64,000 nucleotides of DNA, from sequence record PZ583741.1. The stretch is one strand, 5' to 3'. A model generated the notes under the pieces. It saw only the letters and a list, made by a program, of their open reading frames with translations, made no database searches and was not told the origin of the DNA. Made by a program: the position numbers and the translations under genes. Within the stretch, counting starts at the first letter, position 1; each line of letters begins with the position of its first letter. This DNA comes from a phage. Shown piece after piece: positions 1 to 60,289 of this stretch.

Positions 1-1302
<1,302 letters not shown>

Positions 1303-16573: not shown

Positions 16574-16947
16574 TGAATATGCTTGAACTGGTTGATGCAT
16601 ATCTTCAGGATGCTGGATTGTATGATGGCTGGACTTCGCAGTTGCAGTTCTGGAATGACACCGGAGATGGCAAAGAACAATTTATTGTCCTGCAATCCAA
16701 TGGTGGCACGCAGGTAATGGATGGCCTCGGCGGTGATTTCTATTTCTCGTTATACGTTGTTGGCAAACAAGGCCAGTACAACGTTGCTGATGTTGATGCG
16801 AAAGCCAATGAGATTATCGAATACATTAAGACGCATCCGATTGATTCATGCGTTAACTACATCCAGTTGCAGGCTCCGCTCGGTAGGCCAATGCTGACGG
16901 AAGAAAAAAGACCTGTGCATGAGTTGCTTTTGCGGGTTGTTAAATAA
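16573..16947 (+). CDS. putative neck / tail completion protein
   Basis: AAGGAGA RBS; position before tail tube. Confidence 0.4.
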   Translation: MNMLELVDAYLQDAGLYDGWTSQLQFWNDTGDGKEQFIVLQSNGGTQVMDGLGGDFYFSLYVVGKQGQYNVADVDAKANEIIEYIKTHPIDSCVNYIQLQAPLGRPMLTEEKRPVHELLLRVVK

Positions 16948-16975
16948 ATAAAGCCGCACTTGGCGGCCTTATTAC
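16948..16975 (+). terminator. putative terminator
   Basis: hairpin gccgcacttggcggc. Confidence 0.4.
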
Positions 16976-17001
16976 TGGTTTAAGCATTGCCAGCGTGCTT
17001 T

Positions 17002-17067
17002 CTTAATATCCAGCCCCGTAACCCATACATACCCCTACATATGATTGCGATAATGCTGGATATTAAG
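17002..17067. repeat. 13-bp perfect inverted repeat CTTAATATCCAGC / GCTGGATATTAAG separated by 40 bp, in a ~560 bp ORF-free region
   Basis: read directly: 17002..17014 and 17055..17067. Confidence 0.6.
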
Positions 17068-17458
17068 TGTTGTGGTGGCCGGTGCTGATCTCCGGCATAA
17101 GGCGCTTATTCGGCGGCGTCGAGCTTGCTTATTCGCTTGAGCCATCCTCGTGAGTCAGCCACGTCCCACTGCGCATCAGCCTGCGCATTCACCACAACGG
17201 AAAGAGCACTGATGCGCTCACTAGGGACTCCTTAGCCATAACCAACGGGCTTCTGGTACACCAATGCTCTTACCTGTTGTGTGCCCATTATTAATCACAG
17301 CGGGCCACTGCGCCGAATTTGTTTACAAGGAATCGGAAGACCTTGCTGACTTACAGGCTATTACGCCGCTATCAGAACAACATCATCGTTTGCATTTATC
17401 TTTGTGGTCAGTTTCTAAAAAGTCCGCAAAGTCGCTCACGAAAACTATCTGAGATACA

Positions 17459-17501
17459 ATCTACACCACAAAAATAACGCTGTCAACACCTGTGATATAA
17501 T
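17459..17501 (+). promoter_or_regulatory. tail-gene promoter: ATCTACACCA - N12 - TGTCAACACC - TGaTATAAT
   Basis: extended -10 at 17493..17501; same architecture as 19179..19227. Confidence 0.45.
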
Positions 17502-17537
17502 CACCACGTTAGCAGCTAACACAATTCGGAGATCGAA

Positions 17538-18257
17538 ATGGCTATTTGTGTAAATGATAAAGGCGTTCTGGTCGGTCGCATGACCCGACTGTTCCTTGCT
17601 GAAGGATGCGGTGACGCAGTTCCGTCAGCAGAAGACTGGAGGTATTTAGGATCAACCACCAGTAAAGGCGTTGACTACTCGCCGCAGACTACCACGTCGG
17701 AAGCGGATACCGCTGGCGGTTTTGTTTCCACTCTCGTTACCAGCTCTGATATGACCATTAGTGCAGAGGTGGAAATTCGCAAAAATGACCCAAGCGATGA
17801 GTTTGGCTTCCATCGCCTGGTTGAGATTTACACCACTGAACTGAAAGCGCGTCGCCAGCCTTCATTATGGGTGCGCGAGGTGACTGGTGCGACTATCGTC
17901 ACCGCGTACTGCAACATCACCAGCATCAGCTACGAAGGCGGCACTAACGACATCGTTACTGGAAGCCTTGAGTTTAAGGTGTATGATTCTGACAGCGTTA
18001 CCGTCGAAAGCCTTGAGCCTCTGAAGTTCACTACCGACCTGCAATCAACTGGCAGCACTGGCAGCCCGTTAACTGTTGCTGTTGAAGGTGGCGTCAATCC
18101 TTACACTTACGTGTGGCGCAAAGATGGCGTAGTTGTTGGTGGTGAATCAGGCGCATCACTGGCAAGCCCTACCGATGGTGTGTACACCGTAACGGTGACT
18201 GACTCGTCTACCGACCCTGAAATCATCATCAGCAAGGCTTGCACCGTATCCCAATAA
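17538..18257 (+). CDS. major tail (tube) protein with C-terminal Ig-like domain
   Basis: 239 aa; Ig-like C-terminal region; upstream of tape measure. Confidence 0.65.
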   Translation: MAICVNDKGVLVGRMTRLFLAEGCGDAVPSAEDWRYLGSTTSKGVDYSPQTTTSEADTAGGFVSTLVTSSDMTISAEVEIRKNDPSDEFGFHRLVEIYTTELKARRQPSLWVREVTGATIVTAYCNITSISYEGGTNDIVTGSLEFKVYDSDSVTVESLEPLKFTTDLQSTGSTGSPLTVAVEGGVNPYTYVWRKDGVVVGGESGASLASPTDGVYTVTVTDSSTDPEIIISKACTVSQ

Positions 18258-18290
18258 AGAAAAAGCCCCGAAAGGGGCTTTGTTTTATTC
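18258..18290. terminator. bidirectional terminator
   Basis: hairpin agccccgaaaggggct plus T-tract. Confidence 0.6.
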
Positions 18291-18482
18291 TGCTGGTGGT
18301 TCTGGCAGTGGCATCCAGTGGGTTATATCATCAGGACATACTGTTCGATAGCCACCATCCACCCAACTATCCCAATACCCATCACAATCTAACCACATCA
18401 CCTCTACATAAATTCCATCTGTAACAAGGACATCTAGAAAGTCATCCGGCATCCGCTCGCTACACTTAATCCACTGGCTCAT
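18285..18482 (-). CDS. DUF551-like phage protein
   Basis: C-terminal WMPLPEPP motif. Confidence 0.45.
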   Translation of the reverse strand: MSQWIKCSERMPDDFLDVLVTDGIYVEVMWLDCDGYWDSWVDGGYRTVCPDDITHWMPLPEPPAE

Positions 18483-18622
18483 ATCACCTTATCCTCATCA
18501 AAAATCACACCAATCACACGAAGCAAGTCTTTCGCCATGCGTTCAGCTTCTTCGTAATCATAACCTGCATCGACATACAGTTCAGTATAGAAAATCAGGT
18601 CAACTTTTGTTTGCTCGTTCAT
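18479..18622 (-). CDS. small hypothetical protein (47 aa)
   Basis: manual ORF filling gap in minus-strand island. Confidence 0.25.
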   Translation of the reverse strand: MNEQTKVDLIFYTELYVDAGYDYEEAERMAKDLLRVIGVIFDEDKVI

Positions 18623-18813
18623 TTCTTGTCGCCACTATTAACTAATGCCCAAACAAGTGCCGCAACCCATCCAATAAAGCTCCATCCGACAAGAATATTC
18701 AGAACACAGATTGCAGTCGTATTTACGTGCTTGCGTTGCAGAGCCACAAAAGATGGCAGAAGGTACGCAAATATCACCAAACCAACGAAAAACAACAAAA
18801 TAACAACGTCCAT
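18619..18813 (-). CDS. small two-helix membrane protein, superinfection-immunity-like
   Basis: LGWSFIGWVAALVWAL GW-rich TM pattern; GAGGT RBS. Confidence 0.4.
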   Translation of the reverse strand: MDVVILLFFVGLVIFAYLLPSFVALQRKHVNTTAICVLNILVGWSFIGWVAALVWALVNSGDKK

Positions 18814-18845
18814 AGCTAACCTCAATTGTTAATAACTTGTTTATA

Positions 18846-19139
18846 TTACATGCCATTCTTTTCGCACAAAGCAACAGATACATCACGCAACTGCTCTTTG
18901 GTCATATCCTTGCGCGCATAAACCATTTCTACGATAGCAAGTCCGATTATTTCTGCTGATTCGTTGTTTTTTGTGGAACCATTAACTACCACCTCGGCAA
19001 GATTCTTGCTGATACCGTTATCGCGAGCATCGGCAGTGTTTAATGCGATGTCGCCAATGTTCTTGCACACCTCGGAAGTTGCTACAGCAGAGAAAGAGGA
19101 AACCAATAGTGCAGATGCGATCAACATTTTAATTTTCAT
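18846..19139 (-). CDS. secreted protein with signal peptide (exclusion candidate)
   Basis: N-terminal MKIKMLIASALLVSSFSAVA signal-like; GAGGTGAG RBS. Confidence 0.5.
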   Translation of the reverse strand: MKIKMLIASALLVSSFSAVATSEVCKNIGDIALNTADARDNGISKNLAEVVVNGSTKNNESAEIIGLAIVEMVYARKDMTKEQLRDVSVALCEKNGM

Positions 19140-19178
19140 AACTCACCTCATTTATTCATATCTCGTTTCGATGACTTG

Positions 19179-19227
19179 AATCTACATCACCACCTCGCAG
19201 GTGTCAACACCACTGAGATGATATAAT
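19179..19227 (+). promoter_or_regulatory. tail-gene promoter: ATCTACATCA - N12 - GTCAACACC - TGaTATAAT
   Basis: extended -10 at 19219..19227. Confidence 0.45.
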
Positions 19228-19256
19228 CAACATCAGTCAAATTCAGGATGCAAAAC

Positions 19257-19964
19257 ATGAGCAATCGCACGCCACTAACAGAAATCGGGGAGATGCGCAT
19301 CTCGCTTTCTGACAGGAGTTTTTTCTTCAAGCCATCATTCCGCGCCATGAATGAAATCGGCACACCAAAAGAAATCGTCGAGGTGTATGCTAAGCTCAAC
19401 GGCATTGATTATGTTGCGCCATTGCAGCACGTGGAATACCTGCCATTTGGCGCGCAGATGCAGGTCATGAAAACCATCAGTAAGCCTGTGTATGGTCGCC
19501 ATGTACTGAGCGCGGCCTATATTGTCATGCAGTCATGCAGTGAAGATGATATTTCTGTGCTGATTGGTGGATGGAAACCAACACCACGCGGCGTGCGATA
19601 TGTCCCCAGCATCATGCCAGTGAGCGACATTATTATTATTGCGCGCAACCTGATGCAGCACGGCATCATTGGTAAGTCCCCACTCAAAGTACCTGAGCGT
19701 CTGGAAGAGCATGGCAAGAAAACAACAAACGAGTTTCATGCGTCGCAATACATCATCTCAGCACGCACGCATTTCGACATGACGCGCGATGAGGCTGAAA
19801 ACCTGTCCATGACAGAGTTTCAGATGATGATTAAGAATAAATATCCAGAGCCGAAAGGGTTAACGAAAGAAGAGCGCGCGGCAGAGTATAATCAGGCCAA
19901 AGCAGACCGTGAGCGCATGAAGGCACTGGCTGAACGCAAAGCGAAAAAAGCGAGGAATACATAA
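19257..19964 (+). CDS. putative tail assembly chaperone
   Basis: immediately upstream of tape measure gene. Confidence 0.45.
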   Translation: MSNRTPLTEIGEMRISLSDRSFFFKPSFRAMNEIGTPKEIVEVYAKLNGIDYVAPLQHVEYLPFGAQMQVMKTISKPVYGRHVLSAAYIVMQSCSEDDISVLIGGWKPTPRGVRYVPSIMPVSDIIIIARNLMQHGIIGKSPLKVPERLEEHGKKTTNEFHASQYIISARTHFDMTRDEAENLSMTEFQMMIKNKYPEPKGLTKEERAAEYNQAKADRERMKALAERKAKKARNT

Positions 19965-22339
19965 TGGCTGAAGAAGTCGGCGGAATTGTCTATGAAGTCG
20001 GGATGGATGTTAAAGGCCTGAAGGCTGGCGCGACAACAGCCAACAAGACTTTAGATGACCTTGAATCATCAACCAACAAAACCACAAGCGCGCTTGGCAG
20101 GCTGGATAAAAATGCCAGAAATGCTGGCAGCGGAATGAAGAATGCTGGCGGCGCAGCTTCAGGGCTAAAAACCAGTATGTCGATGCTGGCTAGCGCAATA
20201 TCCGTGTCACTGATTATCGAATGGGGTAAGCGATTCCTTGAGGTTGCTGATAACATGACGCAGCTTCAGGCAAGGATTGCTCGCCTGTCAACTGATGCGA
20301 AAACCGCGAACGAAACATTCAGTTCACTGGCAAATATCGCCTCAACCACTGGTGCAAGCCTGAGTGACACTACGAAGTTGTGGGAGACATTGACGTCATC
20401 ACTGAAAGAGGCTGGAGCGACAAATGCGCAGGTTCTGAACCTTACCGATACCCTGCAAAAAATAGGACGAATCGGCGGGTCATCAACCGAAGAAATGGCG
20501 AACGCATTACGTCAGTTCGGTCAGTCAATCGCATCTGGCACAATCCGTGCAGAAGAGTTCAACTCCATCCTTGAGCAGATGCCTGAGCTTGCTCGCCAGA
20601 TAGCTGCTGGTCTTGGTATTTCAATGGGTGAACTTCGAGCCAGAATGCTCGACGGAAAACTGACGGCGGAAGATGCACTGAACGCCATTCAGGACAGAAC
20701 AAGAGTCGTCAATGCTGAGTTTGAAAAACTTCCTCGCACAATGGATCAGGCTGTTGGTTCTCTTGAGATTTCATTCTCCAAACTTGTGGTTGCCGTTAAC
20801 GATGCTACTGACGCATCAAAAACAGCAGTTGAGATTATCGACCAGCTGGCAAAATACATTGATTTCCTCGGTGACAAGTCAACCAGCACGAGCGATAAAA
20901 TTCTGTCTCTCGCCACGGTTATATCGAAGTTAAACCCGGGCGCGTGGGCGCAAATGGGAGTTGATGCGCTTTTTGGTGATGACGATATTGAGAAGCAAAA
21001 ACAATATAACGATCAGGTTGAGCGATTCGTTAAGGCATCGGCGGAAGGCTACGAACAGACAAAAAAACAGGCTGAAGCAACAAAACACCTGAAGATTGCG
21101 CAAGCACCAACAAAAGATAAAAAAGGCAAAGGAAAGGGTAAGAGCGCAGAGGAACGTCAGGCTGAATCAGTCGCTGAAAAGCTGGAGAAATTACGCCAGC
21201 AGACCATGCTTAATGCCACATCTACCAGCGAATTATCCCGCGAGCAAGCCATTCTCAATGCTCAGCAATCACTTGGAAAGGCGGCGACTCAGGAGCAAAT
21301 AAAACTGGCTGGTGAATATGCCGCTAAGATTTGGGACCAGAAGAATGCGTTGAAGGAGCAGGCAGAAGCGGAGAAGGAAAGGCAGCGTGTAGAAAAATCA
21401 TATCAGGGACTACGCGCCATTGCGTCACCAACGACTGGCATTGACAGTGAATACCAGCAACGCATGGCTGACCTTGATGCTTATGCTGCTGCGTACCCGC
21501 AGAAAATTACGGAGATTGAACAGACTCGCGCAGCAATTGAAGCGCAATATCGCCAGCAGCGAATGGATGCCATGTGGGCAGAATGGCAGCAACAAAGCCT
21601 CGGAGCGCAACTTTTCGGTACGGCGCTTGATTCGGCAATGAGTACGGCATCAAACAGCATAACCGGATTACTGACAGGTACAATGAGTGTACAGGATGCA
21701 ATGCGCAGCCTCGGCTCTACTGTACTGAACTCTCTGGTAAATAGTTTCGTCGAAATGGGTGTGCAGTGGGTTAAATCTGCGGTTATGGGGCAGACTGCGC
21801 AGGTTGCAGCAACCGCTACCACAACAGCGGCGCAAACAGCAGGACTGGCAACTACCACAGCCGCCTCAACTGCGGCGGCAGCCACCACTACGGCGGCATG
21901 GACCCCAGCTGCAATTGTTGCTTCAATCGGTTCATTCGGCGGTGCGGCTGCAATTGGTGTAGGTGCTGTACTTGGGGCGTTGGCGATGGGGATAGCTGGC
22001 AAGCGCAAGAATGGCGGTCCTGTTAGCGCCGGAAGCATGTACGAAGTGGGCGAAAATGGCTTGCCTGAAATATTCCAGGCGTCCAACGGTCGCCAGTACA
22101 TGATTCCCGGTAACGATGGCTCAGTTATCAGCAACAAAGACCTGACAGGCGGTGGTAGTGGCGTTGTGGTTTATAATAACGTGATAAATAACAGCTCAGC
22201 GCAGGTTAGCAGCAGCGCCAGAGATAACGGTGACGGCAGCGTGACGATTGAGACGATTGTGAGTGATATTTCTGAAAATGGCCCGATAGGGCAAGCCATC
22301 TCAAGAAACTACAACACCAACAGACGAGCAACAGAGTAA
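19964..22339 (+). CDS. tail tape measure protein
   Basis: 791 aa, coiled-coil, Ala/Thr/Gly-rich hydrophobic segment. Confidence 0.85.
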   Translation: MAEEVGGIVYEVGMDVKGLKAGATTANKTLDDLESSTNKTTSALGRLDKNARNAGSGMKNAGGAASGLKTSMSMLASAISVSLIIEWGKRFLEVADNMTQLQARIARLSTDAKTANETFSSLANIASTTGASLSDTTKLWETLTSSLKEAGATNAQVLNLTDTLQKIGRIGGSSTEEMANALRQFGQSIASGTIRAEEFNSILEQMPELARQIAAGLGISMGELRARMLDGKLTAEDALNAIQDRTRVVNAEFEKLPRTMDQAVGSLEISFSKLVVAVNDATDASKTAVEIIDQLAKYIDFLGDKSTSTSDKILSLATVISKLNPGAWAQMGVDALFGDDDIEKQKQYNDQVERFVKASAEGYEQTKKQAEATKHLKIAQAPTKDKKGKGKGKSAEERQAESVAEKLEKLRQQTMLNATSTSELSREQAILNAQQSLGKAATQEQIKLAGEYAAKIWDQKNALKEQAEAEKERQRVEKSYQGLRAIASPTTGIDSEYQQRMADLDAYAAAYPQKITEIEQTRAAIEAQYRQQRMDAMWAEWQQQSLGAQLFGTALDSAMSTASNSITGLLTGTMSVQDAMRSLGSTVLNSLVNSFVEMGVQWVKSAVMGQTAQVAATATTTAAQTAGLATTTAASTAAAATTTAAWTPAAIVASIGSFGGAAAIGVGAVLGALAMGIAGKRKNGGPVSAGSMYEVGENGLPEIFQASNGRQYMIPGNDGSVISNKDLTGGGSGVVVYNNVINNSSAQVSSSARDNGDGSVTIETIVSDISENGPIGQAISRNYNTNRRATE

Positions 22340-22370
22340 AAAGAAGCCCCTCACGGGGCTTTGTTCATTA
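22340..22370 (+). terminator. rho-independent terminator
   Basis: hairpin agcccctcacggggct. Confidence 0.55.
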
Positions 22371-23430
22371 TCTCGCTCATTAATTCAGGTGAGTATTTCA
22401 GCCATTCTGTTGCCCCATCAAAACCCGTCAGTCCTGCGCTTTCATATTTCTTATGGTAATACTTTTCAATGCGCATGGCTTCGGCTCCGGTCGTTTTTAT
22501 TTTATGTATGAGGTTGAAGTCGAATGGTGTTCCTGATTTAAGTTGCGATAATCTTTTTCTGATTTTATTAGTTATTCCAACCTTAATAATTCCATCGGCC
22601 ATCAAGAAATACACATATCCGGTCAATGATGGATTATATCCACCTTTTGCACAAGAAGGGCAGCCACTACCTTTCATATGTGTATTTGGTGATTGCATGA
22701 ATATCCCATGAATAGGGCAAACTATTTTTACCTTACTCATCACATTTCTATAATCAACAAGATGATAGTCATATCTTGAATCGTGAATTTTATTTGACCT
22801 GATGATGAACTCACCTACCTTTAAAGTTCTTCCTTCAACTCTAGACTGAATGCCGCATGACGGACACCCTTTGCCGTTTACATGTGATATGGCTCTCTGA
22901 GTAAATAACCCGTGTATGTTGCATTTAATATTAACATCGGCATCCATGCCATTAAAATTAGCAGCAGAGTAATCATATCTCAATCCATGCCTAGCAACAG
23001 CCCTAGAAATAAAACTATCAATAGAATGCGTTTTCTTTTCGGATATCCTTTTATATCCGCACAATCTACACCCTAAACCTTCAAGGTGTTTATAAGGAAG
23101 CTGTTCGAAATCCCCATGGGTTGCGCATGTTATTGTTATTTTCGTGTGTGAGTTTATATATTCAACTTTAGAATAGTCATAAGAGTCACCATGCTTTGCA
23201 ATCGCATCAGTCACAAACTCACGCGTTGTTTTCCTCTTACCTCCAGAGCATGATTGGCACCCGGCCCCATTCAAATGAGCGTCTGGAGTTTGCTCAAAAT
23301 CACCGTGATAATGGCACGTTATAATTATCTTCATCTTTGAACGGATGTACACTGATTTATCATAAACGTACTTATCGCCATGAACCGATTTAGCTTTGGC
23401 AATGAATTCTTCGGTAGTTAGCTTGCGCAT
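22351..23430 (-). CDS. GIY-YIG (T5orf172-type) nuclease with four N-terminal tandem zinc-binding repeats
   Basis: four ~65-aa repeats of C..HG.F.Q.P..H..G.GC..C; C-terminal GYVYFL...KVGIT GIY-YIG-like domain. Confidence 0.7.
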   Translation of the reverse strand: MRKLTTEEFIAKAKSVHGDKYVYDKSVYIRSKMKIIITCHYHGDFEQTPDAHLNGAGCQSCSGGKRKTTREFVTDAIAKHGDSYDYSKVEYINSHTKITITCATHGDFEQLPYKHLEGLGCRLCGYKRISEKKTHSIDSFISRAVARHGLRYDYSAANFNGMDADVNIKCNIHGLFTQRAISHVNGKGCPSCGIQSRVEGRTLKVGEFIIRSNKIHDSRYDYHLVDYRNVMSKVKIVCPIHGIFMQSPNTHMKGSGCPSCAKGGYNPSLTGYVYFLMADGIIKVGITNKIRKRLSQLKSGTPFDFNLIHKIKTTGAEAMRIEKYYHKKYESAGLTGFDGATEWLKYSPELMSEIMNKAP

Positions 23431-39544: not shown

Positions 39545-39574
39545 TTGACGTAGAATTACAACTGATGTAGATTG
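39545..39574. promoter_or_regulatory. early promoter/operator with motif copies TTGACGTAGAAT and TGATGTAGATTG
   Basis: A-module motif at strand-switch region. Confidence 0.35.
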
Positions 39575-45014: not shown

Positions 45015-45120
45015 CAATCTACATCACAAGCATATCCACGTCAACATTTATTGTTGTTGATAAATCTGCATCACCACACTTGACCAATCTACACCGAGCG
45101 CATAGTATAATCTACATCAG
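45015..45120. promoter_or_regulatory. cluster of at least four ATCTACATCA-type motif copies with -10-like TATAAT
   Basis: copies at 45015, 45063, 45086 and 45108. Confidence 0.4.
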
Positions 45121-46222: not shown

Positions 46223-47461
<1,239 letters not shown>

Positions 47462-47516
47462 GTTATCTTACAAGGCATCTCGTGGGGTGCCTCAGTAAGA
47501 CAACCGGAGATAGAGC

Positions 47517-47702
47517 ATGAAAACCAAAATGATTCACAAGTCAGAAGTAAAAATTGGCGACACGGTAATTCACTGCGGTGAGATGAAGACGGTTGGCATG
47601 GAAACATTTGGCAAGGATGAGTTTATGGGACTCCTACTGTGGGGTGATAGCTATCGCTGCGGCTACAAGATGGTTGAGGTTGTAACTGAGGTTAAGTTTT
47701 GA
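47517..47702 (+). CDS. hypothetical early protein
   Basis: 61 aa, GGAGA RBS. Confidence 0.5.
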   Translation: MKTKMIHKSEVKIGDTVIHCGEMKTVGMETFGKDEFMGLLLWGDSYRCGYKMVEVVTEVKF

Positions 47703-47746
47703 ATAGCACGAATTGCTAAACCTTCCGCAAGGCCGTTTGATATAGT
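47703..47746 (+). promoter_or_regulatory. B-module promoter cassette 1: ATAGCACGAATTGCTAAA - N20 - TATAGT
   Basis: palindrome TAGCA-N5-TGCTA; -10 hexamer 38 bp after motif start. Confidence 0.5.
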
Positions 47747-47966
47747 GGTCTTGTTGAAGCAAAACAATCAATCATGGGGTTACACAAATGCAAGTTTATA
47801 AATCACCTGGCGGCGCTCGTTACGTTGTTGTTGATGGCATGGTGTACTGCAAGCCGCTAACCGGATTCACATTTCGCTCGTCAATGACGGTGGATCGATA
47901 CCTTTAGTTGATAGGTTGGGGATTTCTTAGGTTTGAAAAGGTAATCAAGCCTATAATGACCGTCAA

Positions 47967-48010
47967 ATAGCACGAATTGTTAAAATGGGATTCATCCTGA
48001 ATGGTATGAT
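47967..48010 (+). promoter_or_regulatory. B-module promoter cassette 2 (variant TTGTTA; -10 TATGAT)
   Basis: same 38-bp spacing. Confidence 0.4.
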
Positions 48011-48162
48011 CCACACATCAACCACAAGAATGGAAGTTAAGTGACGATATACGAACATAAATTCAGCAGTATGGGTATTGATATGCTCCTGCACTATGTA
48101 GACGAAAAATACGCAAATCTCATGCTTAATACGCATGGCGGCACAATAACGAGGATTGAGAT

Positions 48163-48426
48163 ATGAGTAAGTACAACCGTGAGATTATCGGCCTGGATGG
48201 GGAAGTAACCACAGTGGATGTATATCGAGTCCTGGATGCATTCCAGGTAACAGACCAAGCTATACAGCACGCAATCAAGAAGATGCTGTGCACTGGACTT
48301 AGAGGGCATAAGGACTATCTTACTGACATTGAAGACTCCATTGAATCACTGCAAAAAGCCAAGGAACTTTACGATCAGCGCAAGAGTTACGAGCGGCGAT
48401 ACAATTTATCTTTTACAGATAAATAG
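48163..48426 (+). CDS. hypothetical early protein
   Basis: 87 aa, GAGGA RBS; stop TAG lies inside next motif. Confidence 0.5.
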   Translation: MSKYNREIIGLDGEVTTVDVYRVLDAFQVTDQAIQHAIKKMLCTGLRGHKDYLTDIEDSIESLQKAKELYDQRKSYERRYNLSFTDK

Positions 48427-48466
48427 CACGAATTGCTAAACCCGCTCAGAAGGGTTTTGTTATAGT
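48423..48466 (+). promoter_or_regulatory. B-module promoter cassette 3
   Basis: motif plus TGtTATAGT extended -10. Confidence 0.5.
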
Positions 48467-48495
48467 TAGTTCACACCAAACGAGAGGAAATAAAG

Positions 48496-48714
48496 ATGAT
48501 TACTATTAACCTGTCAGATAAACAAGCAGCAGAACTCAAGTCCATGCTTTCAATCTTTGAGAAGCCAAATGACCAGGTAATTGCCAAAGAGGTAGTGGCT
48601 CAGATTAACAACCAGCAATTCGACGTAAGTGACTTCGAGTCATCGCGCCAGTACGAGGCAATGAGTGTTAATGCTGCATACCTGACTAACTGGGATAATG
48701 CGACTAAGAAATGA
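48496..48714 (+). CDS. hypothetical early protein
   Basis: 72 aa, GAGAGGAAA RBS. Confidence 0.5.
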   Translation: MITINLSDKQAAELKSMLSIFEKPNDQVIAKEVVAQINNQQFDVSDFESSRQYEAMSVNAAYLTNWDNATKK

Positions 48715-48860
48715 TTTTATACATACATGAGTACTGGACGGGGAAGTTTAACACAGTTCGACATGTCCGTGTTTACGAAGATTATGTAAATGCATTCAAT
48801 CAGCAGAAGGTTCTTGGTGGCACCATCAAGGTTTGCGATGTTGTGGATGAGATTTACTAA
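48711..48860 (+). CDS. small hypothetical protein (49 aa)
   Basis: manual ORF, ATGA overlap. Confidence 0.35.
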   Translation: MILYIHEYWTGKFNTVRHVRVYEDYVNAFNQQKVLGGTIKVCDVVDEIY

Positions 48861-48904
48861 ATAGCACGAATTGCTAAAGCAGTCTTGGGGTAATTTGTTA
48901 TAGT
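48861..48904 (+). promoter_or_regulatory. B-module promoter cassette 4
   Basis: motif plus TGtTATAGT. Confidence 0.5.
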
Positions 48905-48934
48905 TACCACATCAAAACTAACGAGGTTATAAGA

Positions 48935-49039
48935 ATGAGTGAATTAATTAAAACTATCGCGGACTATCCATTTGCTTCGCTTTTTCTTGCTATTGCAATA
49001 TATGAAATTGTAAAGATTATTGTCAAATGTATTAAATAG
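48935..49039 (+). CDS. small membrane peptide (34 aa)
   Basis: manual ORF, GAGG RBS. Confidence 0.3.
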   Translation: MSELIKTIADYPFASLFLAIAIYEIVKIIVKCIK

Positions 49040-49079
49040 CACGAATTTCTAAAACATTATCGGGGTATCTTACTATAGT
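49036..49079 (+). promoter_or_regulatory. B-module promoter cassette 5 (variant TTTCTA)
   Basis: motif plus TATAGT at fixed spacing. Confidence 0.45.
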
Positions 49080-49109
49080 TACCCCATCAAAACGAAACAG
49101 GAAGCAGAA

Positions 49110-49289
49110 ATGAAATTTCAACAAGGCGAGCCAAAGCTACAAGTCAACCACTTCGATGGTTACGCAACATTCATCATAGCCCAGGCTTGCGGGATGCGAG
49201 ATGAACCTCACGTTCACACCATTCACTTAACAGAAGAACAGGCACGAGAACTGGCTTACGAAATTCTTGAGCAATTGAACCGAATTTAA
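49110..49289 (+). CDS. hypothetical protein (59 aa)
   Basis: GGAAG RBS. Confidence 0.4.
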   Translation: MKFQQGEPKLQVNHFDGYATFIIAQACGMRDEPHVHTIHLTEEQARELAYEILEQLNRI

Positions 49290-49338
49290 CGCGCATAAAA
49301 CGCATTCTAACGAACGATAATTTAAGTAAGGCGATTCT

Positions 49339-49497
49339 ATGATTAAGGTTGTTTTTATTGCTGATGATGGTGTTTATCCATTATTATCTAATGGTGATGT
49401 TATTTACGTGCAAGACATGGGTTGCGCATATATCTATACAGATGAGTTTGGTGACTCTTATTATATTGAGAAATGGGAAGTTGAGGAGATTGCATGA
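49339..49497 (+). CDS. small protein, paralog 1 (52 aa)
   Basis: MIKVVFIADDG...; similar to next ORF. Confidence 0.4.
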   Translation: MIKVVFIADDGVYPLLSNGDVIYVQDMGCAYIYTDEFGDSYYIEKWEVEEIA

Positions 49498-49655
49498 TTA
49501 AGCTTGTTTATGTGGGTGAGAGTGATTATGTGGCGCTCATTCAGAGTGGTGATGTGTTCTTCGCAGAGATGAGTGATGATGGTAGTTTCTACATCGTAAA
49601 GAACAAGAATGGCGAAGATATCTACCTTTCAAAAGATGAGGTCATCATTTACTAA
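49494..49655 (+). CDS. small protein, paralog 2 (53 aa)
   Basis: MIKLVYVGESD...; tandem duplicate. Confidence 0.4.
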   Translation: MIKLVYVGESDYVALIQSGDVFFAEMSDDGSFYIVKNKNGEDIYLSKDEVIIY

Positions 49656-49780
49656 TGGATAACTACGAATCACCAGTAGAGTGGTGTAAGCGAATGCAGG
49701 ACGAAGCTAAAACTGGTGAAGAGGCGATGGCTTACTACGAACTGGCGCAAATTTGGATGGAACGTGAGAAGAAAGAATGA
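49655..49780 (+). CDS. small hypothetical protein (41 aa)
   Basis: manual ORF with overlapping start/stop. Confidence 0.3.
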   Translation: MDNYESPVEWCKRMQDEAKTGEEAMAYYELAQIWMEREKKE

Positions 49781-49920
49781 GCTTCACTGAATACGTTATC
49801 GCATGCGAGAGACTGGTCTTTGACATGAAGACTTTTCACTGGTTCATCATCAAGGATTTAATTAAGCCTTACAAGCAAGGCGTTACGCCAGAGGCTTTTG
49901 TTAAGTCATTCTACAAATAG
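49777..49920 (+). CDS. small hypothetical protein (47 aa)
   Basis: manual ORF; stop TAG inside next motif. Confidence 0.35.
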   Translation: MSFTEYVIACERLVFDMKTFHWFIIKDLIKPYKQGVTPEAFVKSFYK

Positions 49921-49960
49921 CACGAATTGCTAAACGCAGTCGCCATGGATGGCATATAAT
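49917..49960 (+). promoter_or_regulatory. B-module promoter cassette 6 (-10 TATAAT)
   Basis: motif plus consensus -10 at fixed spacing. Confidence 0.5.
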
Positions 49961-49993
49961 TACCACATCAACACAACGAAGAGAGATATAATA

Positions 49994-50140
49994 ATGAAAA
50001 ATGTATTTGGCATCAGCTATGAAGAAGAGTTTGTTGATTGCCTTATTTACCTGAATGAGATCTACGGAGATGAGTTTGAATGTGATGGTGATTCACTTCA
50101 TGCAAAAATAGAACTTGAAACATTTGGGGAGGTTGTCTAA
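49994..50140 (+). CDS. hypothetical protein (48 aa)
   Basis: ATG at 49994 in ORF 49949..50140. Confidence 0.4.
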   Translation: MKNVFGISYEEEFVDCLIYLNEIYGDEFECDGDSLHAKIELETFGEVV

Positions 50141-50382
50141 TGATGTTTGGATTATCAGAAGCACACTTCAACGCAGTTAAACGCCAGGCAGCAAAGTTGA
50201 ACGAAGAGTACAGCAAGTTATCGCCAAAACAGCGCAAGGACGATAAGCAGGTTGCGGCATTGATTTCAAAGATGTGGGAGCCAGTTTTCACAATCATTAG
50301 TCGAGACCGCTTTGTTTGGACCAGTGGGTATCTTAAGGGTAGAGTAGGTCACGACGAGAATGGGAATAGTCTTTATGAGTAA
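50140..50382 (+). CDS. hypothetical protein
   Basis: 80 aa, GGGAGG RBS. Confidence 0.5.
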   Translation: MMFGLSEAHFNAVKRQAAKLNEEYSKLSPKQRKDDKQVAALISKMWEPVFTIISRDRFVWTSGYLKGRVGHDENGNSLYE

Positions 50383-50557
50383 TTGCAATAAGCATAGGTA
50401 TAAGTACGCTTTCAGTTCAAAACTTACAGCCCACGACATAAAACTACTTAATCTAGGTTACTTCAAATCCAGCAAAAATGAAAATCATGTCGGGGATTAT
50501 AGATCATTTTATGAGTGCGTTAATTGCGGCGAGATGATTGCGATGGGGGTATTATGA
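50360..50557 (+). CDS. hypothetical protein (zinc-finger-like)
   Basis: 65-aa ORF; start uncertain (50360 or 50375). Confidence 0.35.
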   Translation: MGIVFMSNCNKHRYKYAFSSKLTAHDIKLLNLGYFKSSKNENHVGDYRSFYECVNCGEMIAMGVL

Positions 50558-50640
50558 GTGAGTTAACAATCTGGTTTATCGCAGGTCTGATTACTTGGGC
50601 TTACTTTTTAATCGTTTAGATTGAGCTTGTTAAAAAGAGC

Positions 50641-50669
50641 TTGCATCACTGACAGGAATTATCTAATAT
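50641..50669 (+). promoter_or_regulatory. sigma70-like promoter (TTGCAT - 17 bp - TAATAT) upstream of tRNA
   Basis: hexamers and spacing read from sequence. Confidence 0.4.
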
Positions 50670-50838
50670 TAACCACGTAGACAAACGAGGCCACCAGGTG
50701 GCAACGGCGCACGGAGCGCACTACACGGCAAGTCCGTAGCTCATTAAGTAGCGTATGCGGCATTAAGACCTAGCGCAAATAGGCAGATTAATCGGCTGTA
50801 TCAGGCAGCCCCGGAGCCGTAACCGGGACTCATTCAAA

Positions 50839-50916
50839 GCTCTGCTAGCTCAATTGGACAGAAGCAACGACCTTCTAAGTCGCAGGTTACTGGTTCGAAT
50901 CCAGTGCGGAGCGCCA
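50839..50916 (+). tRNA. tRNA-Arg (anticodon UCU), CCA encoded
   Basis: 7-bp acceptor stem, GG in D-loop, anticodon loop CUUCUAA, T-loop TTCGAAT, 3' GCCA. Confidence 0.75.
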
Positions 50917-50931
50917 ATAAAGGAGTTCATT

Positions 50932-51114
50932 ATGTGGGATGTGAAGTTGTCAATTCGCTTAATGGGCCGCTCGTGCAAGAATTGCACTCAAGAATACATC
51001 GCGTCAGTTGCCGCAATCAGCGCTGAGGATGCGGTAGCGAAAGTAAAGGAGATGTCAGGCGCTGACCCTGACACCCACAAATTCCTGGTAGCTTACGTTC
51101 GTGAGCAAAAGTAA
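50932..51114 (+). CDS. hypothetical protein (60 aa)
   Basis: AAGGAG RBS; track ORF 50854 overlaps the tRNA so start moved. Confidence 0.45.
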   Translation: MWDVKLSIRLMGRSCKNCTQEYIASVAAISAEDAVAKVKEMSGADPDTHKFLVAYVREQK

Positions 51115-51154
51115 AAAGTGTTATACCCTCGTTAAGTTTCGTTTCTCTCGTTGT

Positions 51155-51184
51155 TTTTAGCCCTCGCTTGAGGGCTTTTTTTCG
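51155..51184 (+). terminator. rho-independent terminator
   Basis: hairpin agccctcgcttgagggct plus T6. Confidence 0.6.
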
Positions 51185-51225
51185 TCTGCAATATGCTATA
51201 ATCTGGAATCAACAAAGGAGGATTT

Positions 51226-51732
51226 ATGAGCAAAGCAGCATTAAAGATGGGTGAGGGAAATTTCAAGGCGCTCTACAACAAGAAGTATGGCGACATTGCT
51301 ATGGTGGCAATCAACCGCAAGTACACGCCTGAGGAAGTTTTCGATTTCGCCGTTAGATACTTCTCCTGGGCTGAGAGCGAGGCAATTAAGGCTATTGAGA
51401 CGGCTGCTTTCCAGGGTGTGGTTAGCGAGAGCCTCGTACACAAGCCTAGAGTATTCACCTTAACTGGGCTGGCGCTCTTTATGGGTGTCAATATCAATAG
51501 ATTCGCTCGCTGGCGTACTGAGGCTGGATACTCTGATGTGATGGAATTCATTGATAACGTTATTTACGAGCAGAAGTACCAGCTTGGTGTCGCAGGCATC
51601 ATCAACTCTACCATCGTTGGTAAAGAGCTAGGAATTGATAAGCCGCAGGAGATTAAGATTAGCAACAACTCCACAGCTAACGATGTTGACAGTATGAAGG
51701 AAGCACTTGAGTCCGTGATCAGTAAGCTATAG
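51226..51732 (+). CDS. terminase small subunit
   Basis: 168 aa, HTH-like TLTGLALFMGVNINRFARW; AAGGAGG RBS; upstream of large terminase. Confidence 0.6.
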   Translation: MSKAALKMGEGNFKALYNKKYGDIAMVAINRKYTPEEVFDFAVRYFSWAESEAIKAIETAAFQGVVSESLVHKPRVFTLTGLALFMGVNINRFARWRTEAGYSDVMEFIDNVIYEQKYQLGVAGIINSTIVGKELGIDKPQEIKISNNSTANDVDSMKEALESVISKL

Positions 51733-51800
51733 CACTTATTGTTAAAAGAATGGGCCCAATCAATGAGATAATTGGGTCACTAACTTAACGAGGTGATGAT

Positions 51801-52313
51801 ATGAATTGGCATGATTATTTTGAATACAAAGATGGGAAGATTTACTGGAAAGATTACGATAGCGAGAAGCTTGGAAGGAGAAGGATACAGCGAAGATTCA
51901 TAGGGAAAGAGGTTGGCGGCATTGATAAAAGCCTAGGGTATGTTAGGGTAAACATGCCTGGTAAAAAATATTGGGTTCATAGAATAATCTGGGAAATGCA
52001 TAACGGAGCAATACCAGAAGGTATGCAAATTGACCATATAAATCATGTTAGAAATGATAACAGGATAGAAAACATTAGGTTAGTTACAATTCAGGAAAAT
52101 AGAAAGAATCAGTCAATAAATTCTAGGAATAAGACCGGGGTTACCGGAGTCTGCATAGTATCTAGGACTGGCAAGTATGTAGCTCAAATAAAAAAGGATG
52201 GAGAGAATATTCACTTGGGATTCTTTGATAATATTCACGACGCATCGATTGTCAGGGCGAGGGCTGAATTTATTCTTGGGTATCATAAAAACCACGGGAG
52301 GAAAGATGAGTGA
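51801..52313 (+). CDS. HNH homing endonuclease with AP2 domain, between terminase subunits
   Basis: HRIIWEMHNGAIPEGMQIDHINH...DNRIENIRLV; C-terminal GYHKNHG. Confidence 0.85.
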   Translation: MNWHDYFEYKDGKIYWKDYDSEKLGRRRIQRRFIGKEVGGIDKSLGYVRVNMPGKKYWVHRIIWEMHNGAIPEGMQIDHINHVRNDNRIENIRLVTIQENRKNQSINSRNKTGVTGVCIVSRTGKYVAQIKKDGENIHLGFFDNIHDASIVRARAEFILGYHKNHGRKDE

Positions 52314-53877: not shown

Positions 53878-53917
53878 CACAAATTGCTAAACACTAAAGC
53901 CACGGATGGCGTATAGT
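53874..53917 (+). promoter_or_regulatory. B-module promoter cassette 7 (variant ATAGCACAAATTGCTAAA)
   Basis: terminase stop TAG is inside motif; TATAGT at fixed spacing. Confidence 0.45.
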
Positions 53918-53946
53918 TACTTCACACAAAAGAGAGGAGAAGAAAG

Positions 53947-54279
53947 ATGAAGGCAGTATTTAAAGGTTATAAAAAAGCTGGTCGTTTGGAATTTACTATT
54001 GGTAAGATTTATGAGTTATCAGAAACACGCGGAGTGGGTGGATATATGGTGGTGACTGATGACGGTGGCTTTCGGGCAATATTTATCCCAGACAACATCT
54101 ATGATTTCGAGGTGTTGATCCCAGATGAATTTATCGGTAAAGAAAAGCAATTCAAATATTACATCAATGGCGAAGCTGTTTCTAAAGTCAAGTTCGATGA
54201 TACACTGTTATGCGTCAAGGAATTTAAATCTGATGGCATTGATACATCATCAATCAAGTTCGAAGTAAAATTCGAGTAA
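53947..54279 (+). CDS. hypothetical protein
   Basis: 110 aa, GAGAGGAG RBS, own promoter and terminator. Confidence 0.5.
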   Translation: MKAVFKGYKKAGRLEFTIGKIYELSETRGVGGYMVVTDDGGFRAIFIPDNIYDFEVLIPDEFIGKEKQFKYYINGEAVSKVKFDDTLLCVKEFKSDGIDTSSIKFEVKFE

Positions 54280-54298
54280 CCACAAAAGCTATGATAAA

Positions 54299-54325
54299 CT
54301 AGCCCCTAAATGGGGCTTTTTTATT
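54299..54325 (+). terminator. rho-independent terminator
   Basis: hairpin agcccctaaatggggct plus T6. Confidence 0.6.
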
Positions 54326-54335
54326 GGAGAAAAAC

Positions 54336-55562: not shown

Positions 55563-55631
55563 GAAGCAATGGCGACGACAGAGGAACCTAATGAATGATG
55601 AATTTGATGGCTTTTAGTGAGGAGAATTGGG

Positions 55632-56717: not shown

Positions 56718-56729
56718 GGAGTTATAAAC

Positions 56730-57239: not shown

Positions 57240-57253
57240 TAGTTAAGACTAAA

Positions 57254-57280
57254 CTAACCCGCTTCGGCGGGTTTTTTATT
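57254..57280 (+). terminator. rho-independent terminator (UUCG loop)
   Basis: aacccgcttcggcgggtt plus T6. Confidence 0.6.
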
Positions 57281-57362
57281 GCCTATCATCTCATCATTGC
57301 GTGGTCTAAAAACTCGTGTATAATGAACACGTAGACACCTAACTGAAAAGGAACAATAAAGA

Positions 57363-58304: not shown

Positions 58305-58307
58305 TAA

Positions 58308-58333
58308 ATGGCCCTCTTCGGAGGGCTTTTTTA
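58308..58333 (+). terminator. rho-independent terminator (UUCG loop)
   Basis: gccctcttcggagggc plus T6. Confidence 0.6.
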
Positions 58334-58396
58334 CGTCTGTACCAAATGGAATTGTTGGGTTATAATCACTCAATCAGATAAACAAAGGAGACAAAA

Positions 58397-60274: not shown

Positions 60275-60289
60275 CAAAAGGAAAAATAC

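What the first reader, a model, noticed from the sequence alone, without database searches (positions are those of the whole stretch)
18285..19139. Reverse-oriented moron island between tail tube and tail chaperone
Four minus-strand genes interrupt the tail operon: a DUF551-like protein, a 47-aa ORF, a two-helix GW-rich membrane protein resembling superinfection-immunity proteins, and a signal-peptide protein. The last two are typical of superinfection exclusion or receptor masking.
Basis: inference. Interest (0 to 1): 0.5.

Follow-up and report, generated by a model that had tools for sequence, protein, structure and literature searches.

The report
Reverse accessory operon in phage tail genes
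Four small backward-facing genes between the tail-tube gene and the tape-measure block of a Skate-like Salmonella/E. coli phage form a real, separately transcribed accessory operon; one is a clear relative of the phage T4 Imm protein that blocks a second infection, and the locus is already labelled that way in many related genomes, so it is largely ordinary.

Summary
Four minus-strand genes lie at 18285-19139: DUF551, a 47-aa protein (orf47), a two-helix membrane protein and a signal-peptide protein (sp97). All are under purifying selection (dN/dS 0.05-0.11).

They form their own transcription unit. A sigma-70-type promoter (19207..19179) and a bidirectional terminator (18262-18281) bound it, and both are conserved in relatives.

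The membrane protein (true start 18813, 64 aa) belongs to the T4 Imm family: Pfam PF14373 at 63.6 bits, and 49% identity to a T-even imm product. GenBank relatives already call it "superinfection immunity protein".

sp97 is not Cor, Llp or Spackle. It has no lipobox, no sequence match and no fold match. It defines an uncharacterised family of periplasmic four-helix proteins with two invariant cysteines.

The locus is not a recent island. The orf47 gene is present in all 42 distinct cassettes and sits at the same site, behind the same promoter, in two Klebsiella phages. Imm and sp97 are optional promoter-proximal passengers, yet every cassette carries at least one of them.

In genome-reduced seszw phages DUF551 was deleted, but sp97 and orf47 never were.

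Most likely function: envelope-level superinfection exclusion. This is untested. Interest is low to moderate.

The parts
18262..18281 (.). Bidirectional intrinsic terminator (AAAGCCCC-GAAA-GGGGCTTT with T-runs on both strands). It ends both the tail-tube transcript and the leftward cassette transcript.
   Evidence: Found on both strands by the scan. The hairpin is present in 33 of 34 related loci. It is annotated as two terminators in phage Skate.
18285..18482 (-). DUF551 protein, 65 aa, acidic (pI 4.05), last gene of the unit. Its start overlaps the orf47 stop (ATGA).
   Evidence: Pfam PF04448, 55.5 bits against a cut-off of 22. The protein is very divergent among relatives, 31-93% identity. 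It was cleanly deleted in the viable seszw mutant seszw_220S and is missing from about 5 of about 71 seszw records.
18479..18622 (-). orf47, a 47-aa acidic protein (pI 4.13) of unknown function. It is the invariant anchor gene of the locus and is translationally coupled to Imm (ATGA overlap).
   Evidence: phrog_17424, E 8e-36. Present in 42 of 42 distinct cassettes at 87-97% identity. dN/dS 0.045. Homologues of 45-62% identity sit at the same site in Klebsiella phages 6991 and ZX4. Kept in all sequenced seszw genome-reduced mutants.
18619..18813 (-). Imm-family inner-membrane protein, 64 aa from the ATG at 18813. Two hydrophobic helices (about residues 3-25 and 34-58) are joined by a short basic loop (QRKH), and there is a GW..GW motif.
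   Evidence: PF14373, 63.6 bits against a cut-off of 27.9; phrog_1039 'immunity to superinfection', E 4.7e-24. 49% identity over 43 aa to the imm product of a T-even-type phage, pairwise E 4e-13. Hydropathy. Present in 31 of 42 cassettes.
18846..19139 (-). sp97, an exported protein. The signal peptide is encoded by 19080-19139 (cleavage predicted after A20). The 77-aa acidic mature protein is predicted to be a four-helix bundle with invariant C25 and C92 and a conserved R39-D40-x-G42 ... Y74 motif.
   Evidence: Hydropathy and sequence. Alignments A1, A2 and A4. AlphaFold model with pLDDT 91-98 over the mature part. No Pfam, PDB or NCBIfam match. phrog_2315, unknown function.
19179..19207 (-). 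Leftward sigma-70-type promoter, TTGACA (19207..19202) - 17 nt - TAGATT (19184..19179). The inferred transcription start is near 19172, giving a 5' UTR of about 33 nt before sp97.
   Evidence: 10 of 12 consensus match. Both hexamers are unchanged in all 34 related loci, whichever gene comes first. The same motif occurs 4 times in the phage genome against 0.59 expected. It is conserved in Klebsiella phage 6991.
19219..19227 (+). Rightward extended -10 promoter, TGaTATAAT, for the DUF6246 gene and the tape measure gene. It lies back to back with the leftward promoter.
   Evidence: Read from the sequence. Identical in 34 of 34 loci. The same arrangement lies upstream of the tail-tube gene at 17493-17501 and in Klebsiella phage 6991. 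Function is inferred.
17538..18257 (+). Left flank: the major tail (tube) protein gene with a C-terminal Ig-like domain. It forms its own promoter-to-terminator unit.
   Evidence: phrog_853, E 9e-84. Promoter module at 17458-17501. Terminator at 18262-18281.
19248..19964 (+). Right flank: the DUF6246 protein at the position of a tail assembly chaperone, followed by the tape measure gene (19964-22339). The start is probably 19257, because relatives annotate 708 bp.
   Evidence: PF19759, E 3e-71; phrog_791, unknown function. Annotations of relatives.

Best explanation
The locus is a conserved, separately transcribed leftward accessory operon. It sits between the tail-tube gene and the DUF6246/tape-measure block of a lytic Skate-like siphophage.

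Host RNA polymerase would start at a near-consensus sigma-70 promoter. That promoter is one half of a bidirectional promoter module reused elsewhere in the genome in front of clusters of small genes. Transcription would stop at the bidirectional hairpin shared with the tube gene.

The two promoter-proximal products go to the cell envelope. The 64-aa Imm-family protein inserts in the inner membrane and, like T4 Imm, most likely stops a second phage from delivering its DNA across that membrane without affecting adsorption. The exported 77-aa four-helix protein sp97, which probably carries a disulfide, acts on its own in the periplasm. Its most likely role is a second, unrelated envelope-level exclusion or protection factor.

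The two distal products, orf47 and DUF551, are small acidic cytoplasmic proteins of unknown role. orf47 is the ancestral resident of the locus. Imm and sp97 are interchangeable passengers inserted between the promoter and orf47, and they are gained or lost at a repeated ribosome-binding-site motif.

Shown here: gene reality, family membership, transcription signals and their conservation, and the modular architecture. Inferred: timing of expression, membrane and periplasmic location, and any exclusion activity.
For: Genes and selection.

Imm family membership: PF14373 at 63.6 bits and phrog_1039. 49% identity over 43 aa to a T-even-type imm product encoded next to the DNA polymerase gene. Homologues occur in 1248 phage records, including Tequatrovirus-type phages annotated imm. 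T4 Imm is described as a plasma-membrane protein that, with Spackle, confers superinfection exclusion (PMC7677548; PMC6832632).

Transcription unit: promoter and terminator found. Both hexamers are unchanged in all 34 loci whether sp97, sp112 or Imm is the first gene. The hairpin is present in 33 of 34 loci. The promoter motif occurs 4 times against 0.59 expected, in front of small-gene clusters.

Envelope bias of the promoter-proximal slots: sp97, sp112 (an exported protein in Vi II-E1), the BS5 91-aa C-terminally anchored protein and Imm all occupy them. Every one of 42 distinct cassettes has at least one of sp97/sp112 or Imm, in all combinations, so the two act independently.

sp97 is exported and folded: signal peptide, invariant C25 and C92, high-confidence four-helix model.

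Gain and loss junction: ATGAGGTGAGTTATG upstream of sp97 against TTGAGGTTAGCTATG upstream of Imm. In Imm-first loci whose junction was read (L019, L037) the sp97-type leader is fused directly to the Imm ATG.

Precedent: HK97 gp15 is an inner-membrane exclusion protein encoded by a moron inside the tail genes (PMC3594210).
Against: No experiment on any Imm homologue of this clade was found. The family name is carried over from T4.

sp97 has no detectable relation to any known exclusion protein.

The phage seszw naturally lacks Imm. Its sp97 and orf47 genes survive in all of about 70 sequenced genome-reduced mutants, whereas DUF551 was deleted in about five. An exclusion gene should be dispensable in single-phage laboratory passage, so this hints at a role in the phage's own growth.

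sp97-family genes in Roufvirus-like phages lie beside the lysis cassette.

The rightward tail promoter in the same module is also sigma-70-like. Promoter type alone therefore does not show early expression.

GC content (42.3%) is only slightly below the genome mean of 45.9%.
Confidence: 0.55

Rival explanations
1. The core of the operon (orf47, and sp97 where present) serves the phage's own infection cycle rather than excluding competitors. Possible roles are conditioning the envelope, timing or protecting lysis, or supporting tail gene expression. On this reading Imm is only an add-on.
For: orf47 is present in 42 of 42 cassettes with dN/dS 0.045, as constrained as the tail tube. It is conserved at the same site, with the same promoter, in Klebsiella phages whose tube and DUF6246 proteins are only 52-67% identical. 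sp97 and orf47 are kept in every sequenced genome-reduced seszw mutant down to 36.6 kb, whereas DUF551 was lost in about five; the authors class genes never lost from isolated mutants as quasi-essential or essential. sp97-family genes lie divergently next to endolysin, holin and spanin genes in phages GP-1, pYD38-A and contig L066.
Against: sp97 is absent from 15 of 42 cassettes, so it is not required by the clade. Retention in seszw could reflect few usable CRISPR spacers in short genes, or closeness to the essential rightward promoter; the per-gene table is not held. Another homologue lies in a replication module and one lies in a bacterial genome. No function can be assigned to orf47.
Confidence: 0.25
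2. sp97 is a functional analogue of T4 Spackle. It would be a periplasmic inhibitor of a peptidoglycan hydrolase carried by incoming phage tails, or of lysis from without, working beside Imm as in T4.
For: The gross features match Spackle as described in PMC7677548: an exported protein whose mature form is about 75 aa, a compact helical bundle, one cysteine pair near the two ends, acidic. For sp97 the mature form is 77 aa, there are four helices, C25 and C92 are invariant and the pI is 4.8. It is encoded next to an Imm homologue. Relatives of sp97 sit beside lysozyme-family endolysin genes.
Confidence: 0.1
3. The exported and membrane proteins mask or inactivate the phage receptor, as the lipoproteins Cor of T1 and Llp of T5 do.
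For: Only the general fact that small envelope proteins of virulent siphophages can block receptors (BASEL discussion).
Against: sp97 has a signal-peptidase-I type site (AVA|TS) with the cysteine five residues further on and no lipobox; the same holds across the family. It has no Pfam match, and its only PHROG matches are families of unknown function. Skatevirus phages are reported to depend only on O-antigen through a tailspike, and complete modification of O-antigen during lytic infection is considered futile. In other small siphoviruses receptor-blocking genes lie next to the receptor-binding protein gene, not at this site.
Confidence: 0.03
4. The passengers are neutral or selfish cargo that collects at a permissive intergenic site and gives the phage no benefit.
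For: There are nine different architectures at one site. An HNH endonuclease gene lies in the equivalent cassette of Klebsiella phage 6991. DUF551 is dispensable. The genome has several other reverse-oriented blocks of small genes among the structural genes.
Against: Purifying selection is strong on all four genes. Promoter, ribosome-binding sites and translational coupling are all conserved. No cassette lacks both envelope proteins.
Confidence: 0.07

Closest known systems
Phage T4 Imm (superinfection immunity protein; Pfam PF14373 Imm_superinfect)
   Same: The window's 64-aa protein is a homologue: it scores above the Pfam cut-off and shares 49% identity over the conserved loop and second helix with a T-even-type imm product. 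Both are small proteins with two hydrophobic helices encoded by lytic phages.
   Different: It is shorter (64 aa against 78 aa in the T-even-type phage compared). It is encoded inside the tail-gene region of a small siphophage rather than next to the DNA polymerase gene. It is optional within its own clade, present in 31 of 42 cassettes. No functional data exist for it.
HK97 gp15 moron (Cumby et al. 2012, as summarised in PMC3594210)
   Same: Both are small inner-membrane proteins encoded by a self-contained transcription unit inserted among siphophage tail genes. gp15 blocks genome entry without touching the receptor.
   Different: gp15 is related to YebO, not to Imm. It lies between the chaperone and tape measure genes, is a single gene, and is expressed from a prophage. 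Here the unit has four genes, faces the opposite way, lies between the tube gene and the chaperone-position gene, and belongs to a lytic phage.
Phage T4 Spackle (gp61.3)
   Same: sp97 shares the gross properties: exported, a mature form of about 75-77 aa, helical, one cysteine pair, acidic, partnered in the genome with an Imm-family gene.
   Different: No sequence or fold similarity was detected. No tail lysozyme target is evident. sp97 and Imm assort independently.
Cor (T1, phi80) and Llp (T5) receptor-blocking lipoproteins
   Same: They are small envelope proteins of virulent or temperate siphophages that prevent re-infection.
   Different: They are lipoproteins that target porin receptors and are encoded beside receptor-binding genes. 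sp97 is not a lipoprotein, is unrelated in sequence, and belongs to a phage that targets O-antigen.
Saposin-like proteins (SAPLIP fold)
   Different: The scores are marginal for small helical proteins. Canonical saposins have three disulfides where sp97 has one cysteine pair. There is no sequence similarity and no evidence of lipid binding.

Membership tests
T4 Imm / Pfam PF14373 Imm_superinfect | Match to the family profile above the curated cut-off | tested here: met
   63.6 bits against a gathering score of 27.9, E 1.6e-17, covering profile positions 2-42 of 42. phrog_1039 'immunity to superinfection', E 4.7e-24.
T4 Imm / Pfam PF14373 Imm_superinfect | Direct similarity to the imm product of T-even phages | tested here: met
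   21 of 43 residues identical to the imm product of phage fDHCT2, whose gene lies next to the DNA polymerase gene; pairwise E 4e-13. tblastn also hits Tequatrovirus-size records annotated imm.
T4 Imm / Pfam PF14373 Imm_superinfect | Small membrane protein with two hydrophobic segments | tested here: met
   Kyte-Doolittle means reach 3.05. The two segments span about residues 3-25 and 34-58 and are separated by QRKHVNTT. No dedicated topology predictor was available.
T4 Imm / Pfam PF14373 Imm_superinfect | Made early in infection | tested here: inconclusive
   A conserved near-consensus sigma-70 promoter is shared with other small-gene clusters. The adjacent tail promoter is also sigma-70-like, and no transcript data were found.
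T4 Imm / Pfam PF14373 Imm_superinfect | Blocks DNA entry by a second phage | not testable with these tools
   This needs plating, adsorption and DNA-entry assays.
Moron (Juhala/Hendrix sense, as in PMC3594210) | Own promoter and terminator | tested here: met
   (consensus matches plus conservation; activity not measured).
Moron (Juhala/Hendrix sense, as in PMC3594210) | Extra DNA compared with related genomes that are otherwise syntenic | tested here: met
   Relatives whose DUF6246 protein is 34-45% identical have tube and DUF6246 genes 67-331 bp apart with no cassette. The unit is nevertheless present in every close relative and in two Klebsiella phages.
Moron (Juhala/Hendrix sense, as in PMC3594210) | Base composition different from the surroundings | tested here: inconclusive
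   GC is 42.3% against 51.8% (tube), 48.7% (DUF6246) and 50.4% (tape measure), but the genome mean is 45.9%.
Moron (Juhala/Hendrix sense, as in PMC3594210) | Expressed from a repressed prophage to benefit the lysogen | tested here: not met
   No integrase or repressor is annotated in the full genome of the relative Bas81. Skatevirus isolates are described as lytic.
T4 Spackle | Sequence homology | tested here: not met
   No Spackle chain at E<=10 with the single sequence or with the family profile.
T4 Spackle | Same fold | tested here: not met
T4 Spackle | Binds and inhibits a tail-associated lysozyme | not testable with these tools
   No multimer prediction or biochemistry was available.
Cor / Llp receptor-blocking lipoproteins | Lipoprotein signal with a lipobox cysteine | tested here: not met
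   The sequence reads ...SFSAVA|TSEVC. The cysteine lies five residues after an AxA site, and the same pattern holds across 27 family members.
Cor / Llp receptor-blocking lipoproteins | Sequence homology | tested here: not met
   No Pfam match for sp97, and its only PHROG matches are families of unknown function.
DUF551 (PF04448) | Profile match above the cut-off | tested here: met
   55.5 bits against 22, covering profile positions 1-67 of 68.
HK97 gp15 / YebO | Sequence homology | tested here: not met
   The Pfam scan of the four proteins at E<=0.1 returned only DUF551, Imm_superinfect and a sub-threshold DUF3302 match.

The most novel reading that the evidence does not exclude
sp97 founds a previously undescribed and widespread family of phage-encoded periplasmic proteins. 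Members have a signal peptide, a four-helix bundle that is weakly saposin-like, invariant Cys...Arg-Asp-x-Gly...Tyr...Cys, and a probable disulfide joining the two ends. The novel reading is that this family acts at the envelope by a new mechanism, either excluding incoming phages at the periplasmic step or controlling envelope integrity and lysis. In addition, the 47-aa acidic orf47 would be a quasi-essential small protein anchoring an ancient divergent unit inside the tail genes of Skate-like and Roufvirus-like phages.
Probability: 0.2. Interest if true: 0.55.

Novelty: new member of a known kind. Interest (0 to 1): 0.3.

Why it matters
Skate-like phages are being developed as Salmonella biocontrol and therapy agents and are part of the BASEL reference collection. 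If the Imm homologue and sp97 exclude other phages, they would affect how such phages behave in cocktails and in co-infection.

The locus is also a compact natural example of modular gene exchange. It has a fixed promoter and anchor gene, and swappable envelope-protein slots bounded by a repeated ribosome-binding-site motif.

The practical gain is modest. The Imm call is already in public annotations. The open points are the function of sp97 and the function of the always-present 47-aa protein.

Tried and rejected

Defence and naming libraries. PADLOC and NCBIfam scans of the four proteins gave only sub-threshold noise.

Profile search with A2 in the word-indexed database. It returned almost only the close relatives already seen, so it was poor value.

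Small ORF next to sp97-like genes. I checked whether the ORF after the sp97-like gene of Klebsiella phage GP-1, or the 47-aa ORF next to the Bas81 endolysin, is related to orf47. Neither is.

RNA in or beside the cassette. The Rfam scan of 16900-19300 gave only sub-threshold hits.

Supplementary tables of the seszw genome-reduction paper are not held. The authors' own essentiality class for the seszw cassette genes could therefore not be read, so I counted the deposited mutant genomes instead.

Literature searches for experiments on PF14373 members outside T4 found none that were relevant.

GC content as evidence of foreign origin was set aside as weak once the genome mean was computed.
Full report
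**What the window is.** Bases 1-47,276 are a complete genome of a Skate-like small siphophage. It is about 91-93% identical in DNA to Salmonella, Escherichia and Shigella phages such as Skate, Akira, Sf11 and Bas77-81. A 131-bp repeat (1-131 = 47277-47406) marks the closure of the assembly. The remaining 16.6 kb belongs to a different, Dhillonvirus-like phage. The finding lies wholly in the first genome.

**The observation.** Four minus-strand ORFs occupy 18285-19139 exactly as described.
- Pfam identifies the first as DUF551 (E 1.1e-14) and the third as Imm_superinfect (E 1.6e-17).
- PHROGs places the 47-aa ORF in phrog_17424 and the 97-aa ORF in phrog_2315, both of unknown function.
- The Imm-like gene most likely starts at the ATG at 18813, giving 64 aa. 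That codon has a GAGG ribosome-binding site, and relatives annotate a 195-bp gene.
- Hydropathy shows two hydrophobic helices in that protein and a classical signal peptide in the 97-aa protein, with an A18-V19-A20 cleavage site.
- The homologue in phage Vi II-E1 was annotated as exported, with a SignalP probability of 1.000.
- Across related genomes dN/dS is 0.045 for orf47, 0.066 for Imm, 0.107 for sp97 and 0.09 for DUF551. The tail tube gives 0.053 and the DUF6246 gene 0.030.

All four are therefore real genes under purifying selection.

**Transcription signals.**
- A hairpin at 18262-18281 has T-runs on both strands, so it can terminate both the tube transcript and the leftward transcript. 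It is present in 33 of 34 related loci and is annotated as two terminators in Skate.
- The 108-bp gap between sp97 and the DUF6246 gene holds a leftward TTGACA-17-TAGATT promoter at 19207..19179. Back to back with it is a rightward TGaTATAAT extended -10 element at 19219-19227 (read).
- Both promoter hexamers and the rightward element are unchanged in all 34 related loci, whether the first leftward gene is sp97, its 112-aa variant or Imm.
- The same module precedes the tail-tube gene (17458-17501), and related copies lie at about 39.5 and 45.0 kb. That makes four matches against 0.59 expected. The other copies face clusters of small ORFs.
- Imm, orf47 and DUF551 overlap by ATGA, which implies translational coupling. 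sp97 has its own ribosome-binding site.

The tube gene is thus its own promoter-to-terminator unit. The cassette is an independent operon rather than an interruption of one long tail operon. Its timing is inferred, not shown.

**The Imm-like protein.** Membership of the T4 Imm family is solid.
- It scores 63.6 bits against a cut-off of 27.9.
- It shares 21 of 43 residues with the imm product of a T-even-type phage whose gene sits beside the DNA polymerase gene.
- tblastn finds homologues in 1248 phage records, from T-even-type to mycobacteriophages.

T4 Imm is a plasma-membrane protein that, together with Spackle, makes an infected cell resistant to further T-even infection (PMC7677548; PMC6832632). 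Relatives of this phage already carry the label "superinfection immunity protein" in GenBank. I found no experiment on any member of this clade.

**The exported protein sp97.**
- It has no Pfam, NCBIfam, PADLOC or PDB sequence match.
- Close homologues (67-95% identity) are confined to genomes of about 46-48 kb of this clade.
- An exhaustive profile search found 25 cluster representatives at E<=0.001, about 23 of them distant relatives.
- All share a signal peptide, an invariant Cys25, Arg39 and Cys92, and nearly invariant Asp40, Gly42 and Tyr74.
- With that deeper alignment AlphaFold gives a confident four-helix bundle, with pLDDT 91-98 over the mature part.
- There is no lipobox, so it is not a lipoprotein of the Cor/Llp kind.
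- Skatevirus phages are reported to use only O-antigen through a tailspike, which makes receptor masking unlikely.
- Distant family members lie divergently beside the lysis cassette in three Roufvirus-like phages, in a replication module of another phage contig and in one bacterial genome.

**Architecture across relatives.** I compared the gap between the tube and DUF6246 genes in 50 IMG/VR loci and the GenBank loci fetched. Among 42 distinct cassettes there are nine architectures.

| Feature | Cassettes (of 42) |
|---|---|
| orf47 present | 42 (87-97% identity) |
| Imm present | 31 |
| sp97 or its 112-aa variant present | 27 |
| At least one of the two present | 42 |

- A NinX/DUF2591 gene is optional.
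- DUF551 is nearly always present but very divergent (31-93% identity).
- A 91-aa C-terminally anchored protein sometimes takes the first slot.
- The sp97 presence/absence polymorphism is bounded by a repeated motif: ATGAGGTGAGTTATG upstream of sp97 against TTGAGGTTAGCTATG upstream of Imm. In Imm-first loci whose junction was read (L019, L037) the sp97-type leader is fused directly to the Imm start codon.
- Klebsiella phages 6991 and ZX4 have tube proteins 52-54% and DUF6246 proteins 67% identical to this phage's. They carry a reverse cassette at the same site in which an orf47 homologue is the first gene, followed by unrelated small genes or an HNH endonuclease gene. The same bidirectional promoter was read in 6991.
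- More distant relatives, with DUF6246 identity of 34-45%, have the tube and DUF6246 genes adjacent with no cassette.

The reverse unit is therefore old, orf47 is its anchor, and Imm and sp97 are later promoter-proximal passengers in the Skate-type lineage.

**Experimental hints from public records.** The Skatevirus seszw was subjected to CRISPR-based genome reduction (PMC9825161), and the mutant genomes are in GenBank.
- Wild-type seszw has sp97-orf47-DUF551 and no Imm gene.
- The sp97+orf47 segment is present at 99% identity or more in 72 records, against 71 for the tail-tube control. The DUF551 gene is present at that level in only 66.
- Mutant seszw_220S shows a clean DUF551 deletion.
- The smallest mutant, 36.6 kb, still keeps all three genes.

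DUF551 is therefore dispensable in the laboratory. sp97 and orf47 were never lost from isolated mutants. This may mean they contribute to growth, or only that they were hard to target. The per-gene table is not held.

**Interpretation.** The best-supported reading is an independently transcribed accessory operon whose promoter-proximal slots collect envelope-directed proteins. The Imm homologue most likely blocks DNA entry of a second phage at the inner membrane, as in T4. sp97 acts independently in the periplasm, and its function is unknown; I rank a second exclusion or protection role first.

The main rival is that orf47 and sp97 serve the phage's own cycle. The seszw retention pattern and the lysis-cassette neighbourhood of sp97 relatives support that view. 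The absence of sp97 from 15 of 42 cassettes weakens it.

Receptor masking and Spackle homology are rejected on the tests available. The closest positional precedent is the HK97 gp15 moron, an inner-membrane exclusion protein encoded among tail genes. It is unrelated in sequence and is expressed from a prophage, which does not apply to this lytic clade.

**Verdict.** The Imm call is already public knowledge at the annotation level, so this is a new member of a known kind. What this analysis adds:
- the anchor-plus-slots architecture;
- the reused bidirectional promoter;
- recognition of sp97 as an uncharacterised periplasmic family;
- the unexplained constancy of the 47-aa protein.

Interest is low to moderate.

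Noticed in passing
window 1-131 and 47277-47406; 47407-64000: The window joins two phage sequences. A 131-bp direct repeat closes a Skate-like genome of about 47.3 kb. The remaining 16.6 kb is Dhillonvirus-like (about 96% identity to Escherichia phage vB_Ec-G8) and carries the only tRNA found in the window (tRNA-Arg, 50839-50916).
   Followed up: partly
window 22351-23430 (minus strand): A 359-aa gene with a T5orf172/MUG113 domain and repeated DUF723/CapR-type zinc-finger units (phrog_681 'endonuclease'), GC 39%. It sits in reverse orientation between the tape measure gene and the next tail gene. Bas81 has nothing at that junction, so it looks like a homing-endonuclease insertion.
   Followed up: partly
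window 16950-17457: An ORF-free stretch of about 500 bp lies downstream of a second copy of the leftward promoter (17486..17458). Relatives carry minus-strand tRNA genes here (Skate tRNA-Ile; Bas81 tRNA-Arg and tRNA-Ser). ARAGORN finds none in this window and Rfam gives only sub-threshold tmRNA-like hits (E 0.005). It may be a decayed tRNA or an unknown non-coding RNA.
   Followed up: partly
window 17458-17501, 19179-19227, about 39545-39573, about 45016-45044: A promoter motif (AATCTA-N17-TGTCAA on one strand) occurs four times against 0.59 expected by chance. At the first two sites it is paired with TGnTATAAT facing the other way, forming a bidirectional module. It appears to organise this genome into many short divergent units.
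   Followed up: partly
L009 (Salmonella phage Vi II-E1, AM491472.1) 1796-1975: The record annotates VIP0030, a 'hypothetical phage membrane protein', on the strand opposite the conserved orf47 reading frame (locus 1801-1944). Given the selection on orf47, this is probably a wrong-strand gene call.
   Followed up: no
L012 (Salmonella phage BS5, MN692673.1) 1222-1497; also L032 and L045: A 91-aa protein with a C-terminal hydrophobic anchor occupies the first slot of the cassette in a few phages. It is annotated 'ABC transporter permease', but Pfam gives no support for that.
   Followed up: partly
window 19248 versus 19257: The DUF6246 gene is listed from the ATG at 19248. Relatives annotate 708 bp, which corresponds to the ATG at 19257 and has better spacing from an AGGA motif.
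   Followed up: no
L065 (Bas81, PQ850630.1) whole genome: The structural genes of this clade are broken up by several other reverse-oriented blocks of small genes, for example between terminase and portal and between head morphogenesis and lysis genes. The tube/DUF6246 cassette is one of several such units.
   Followed up: no
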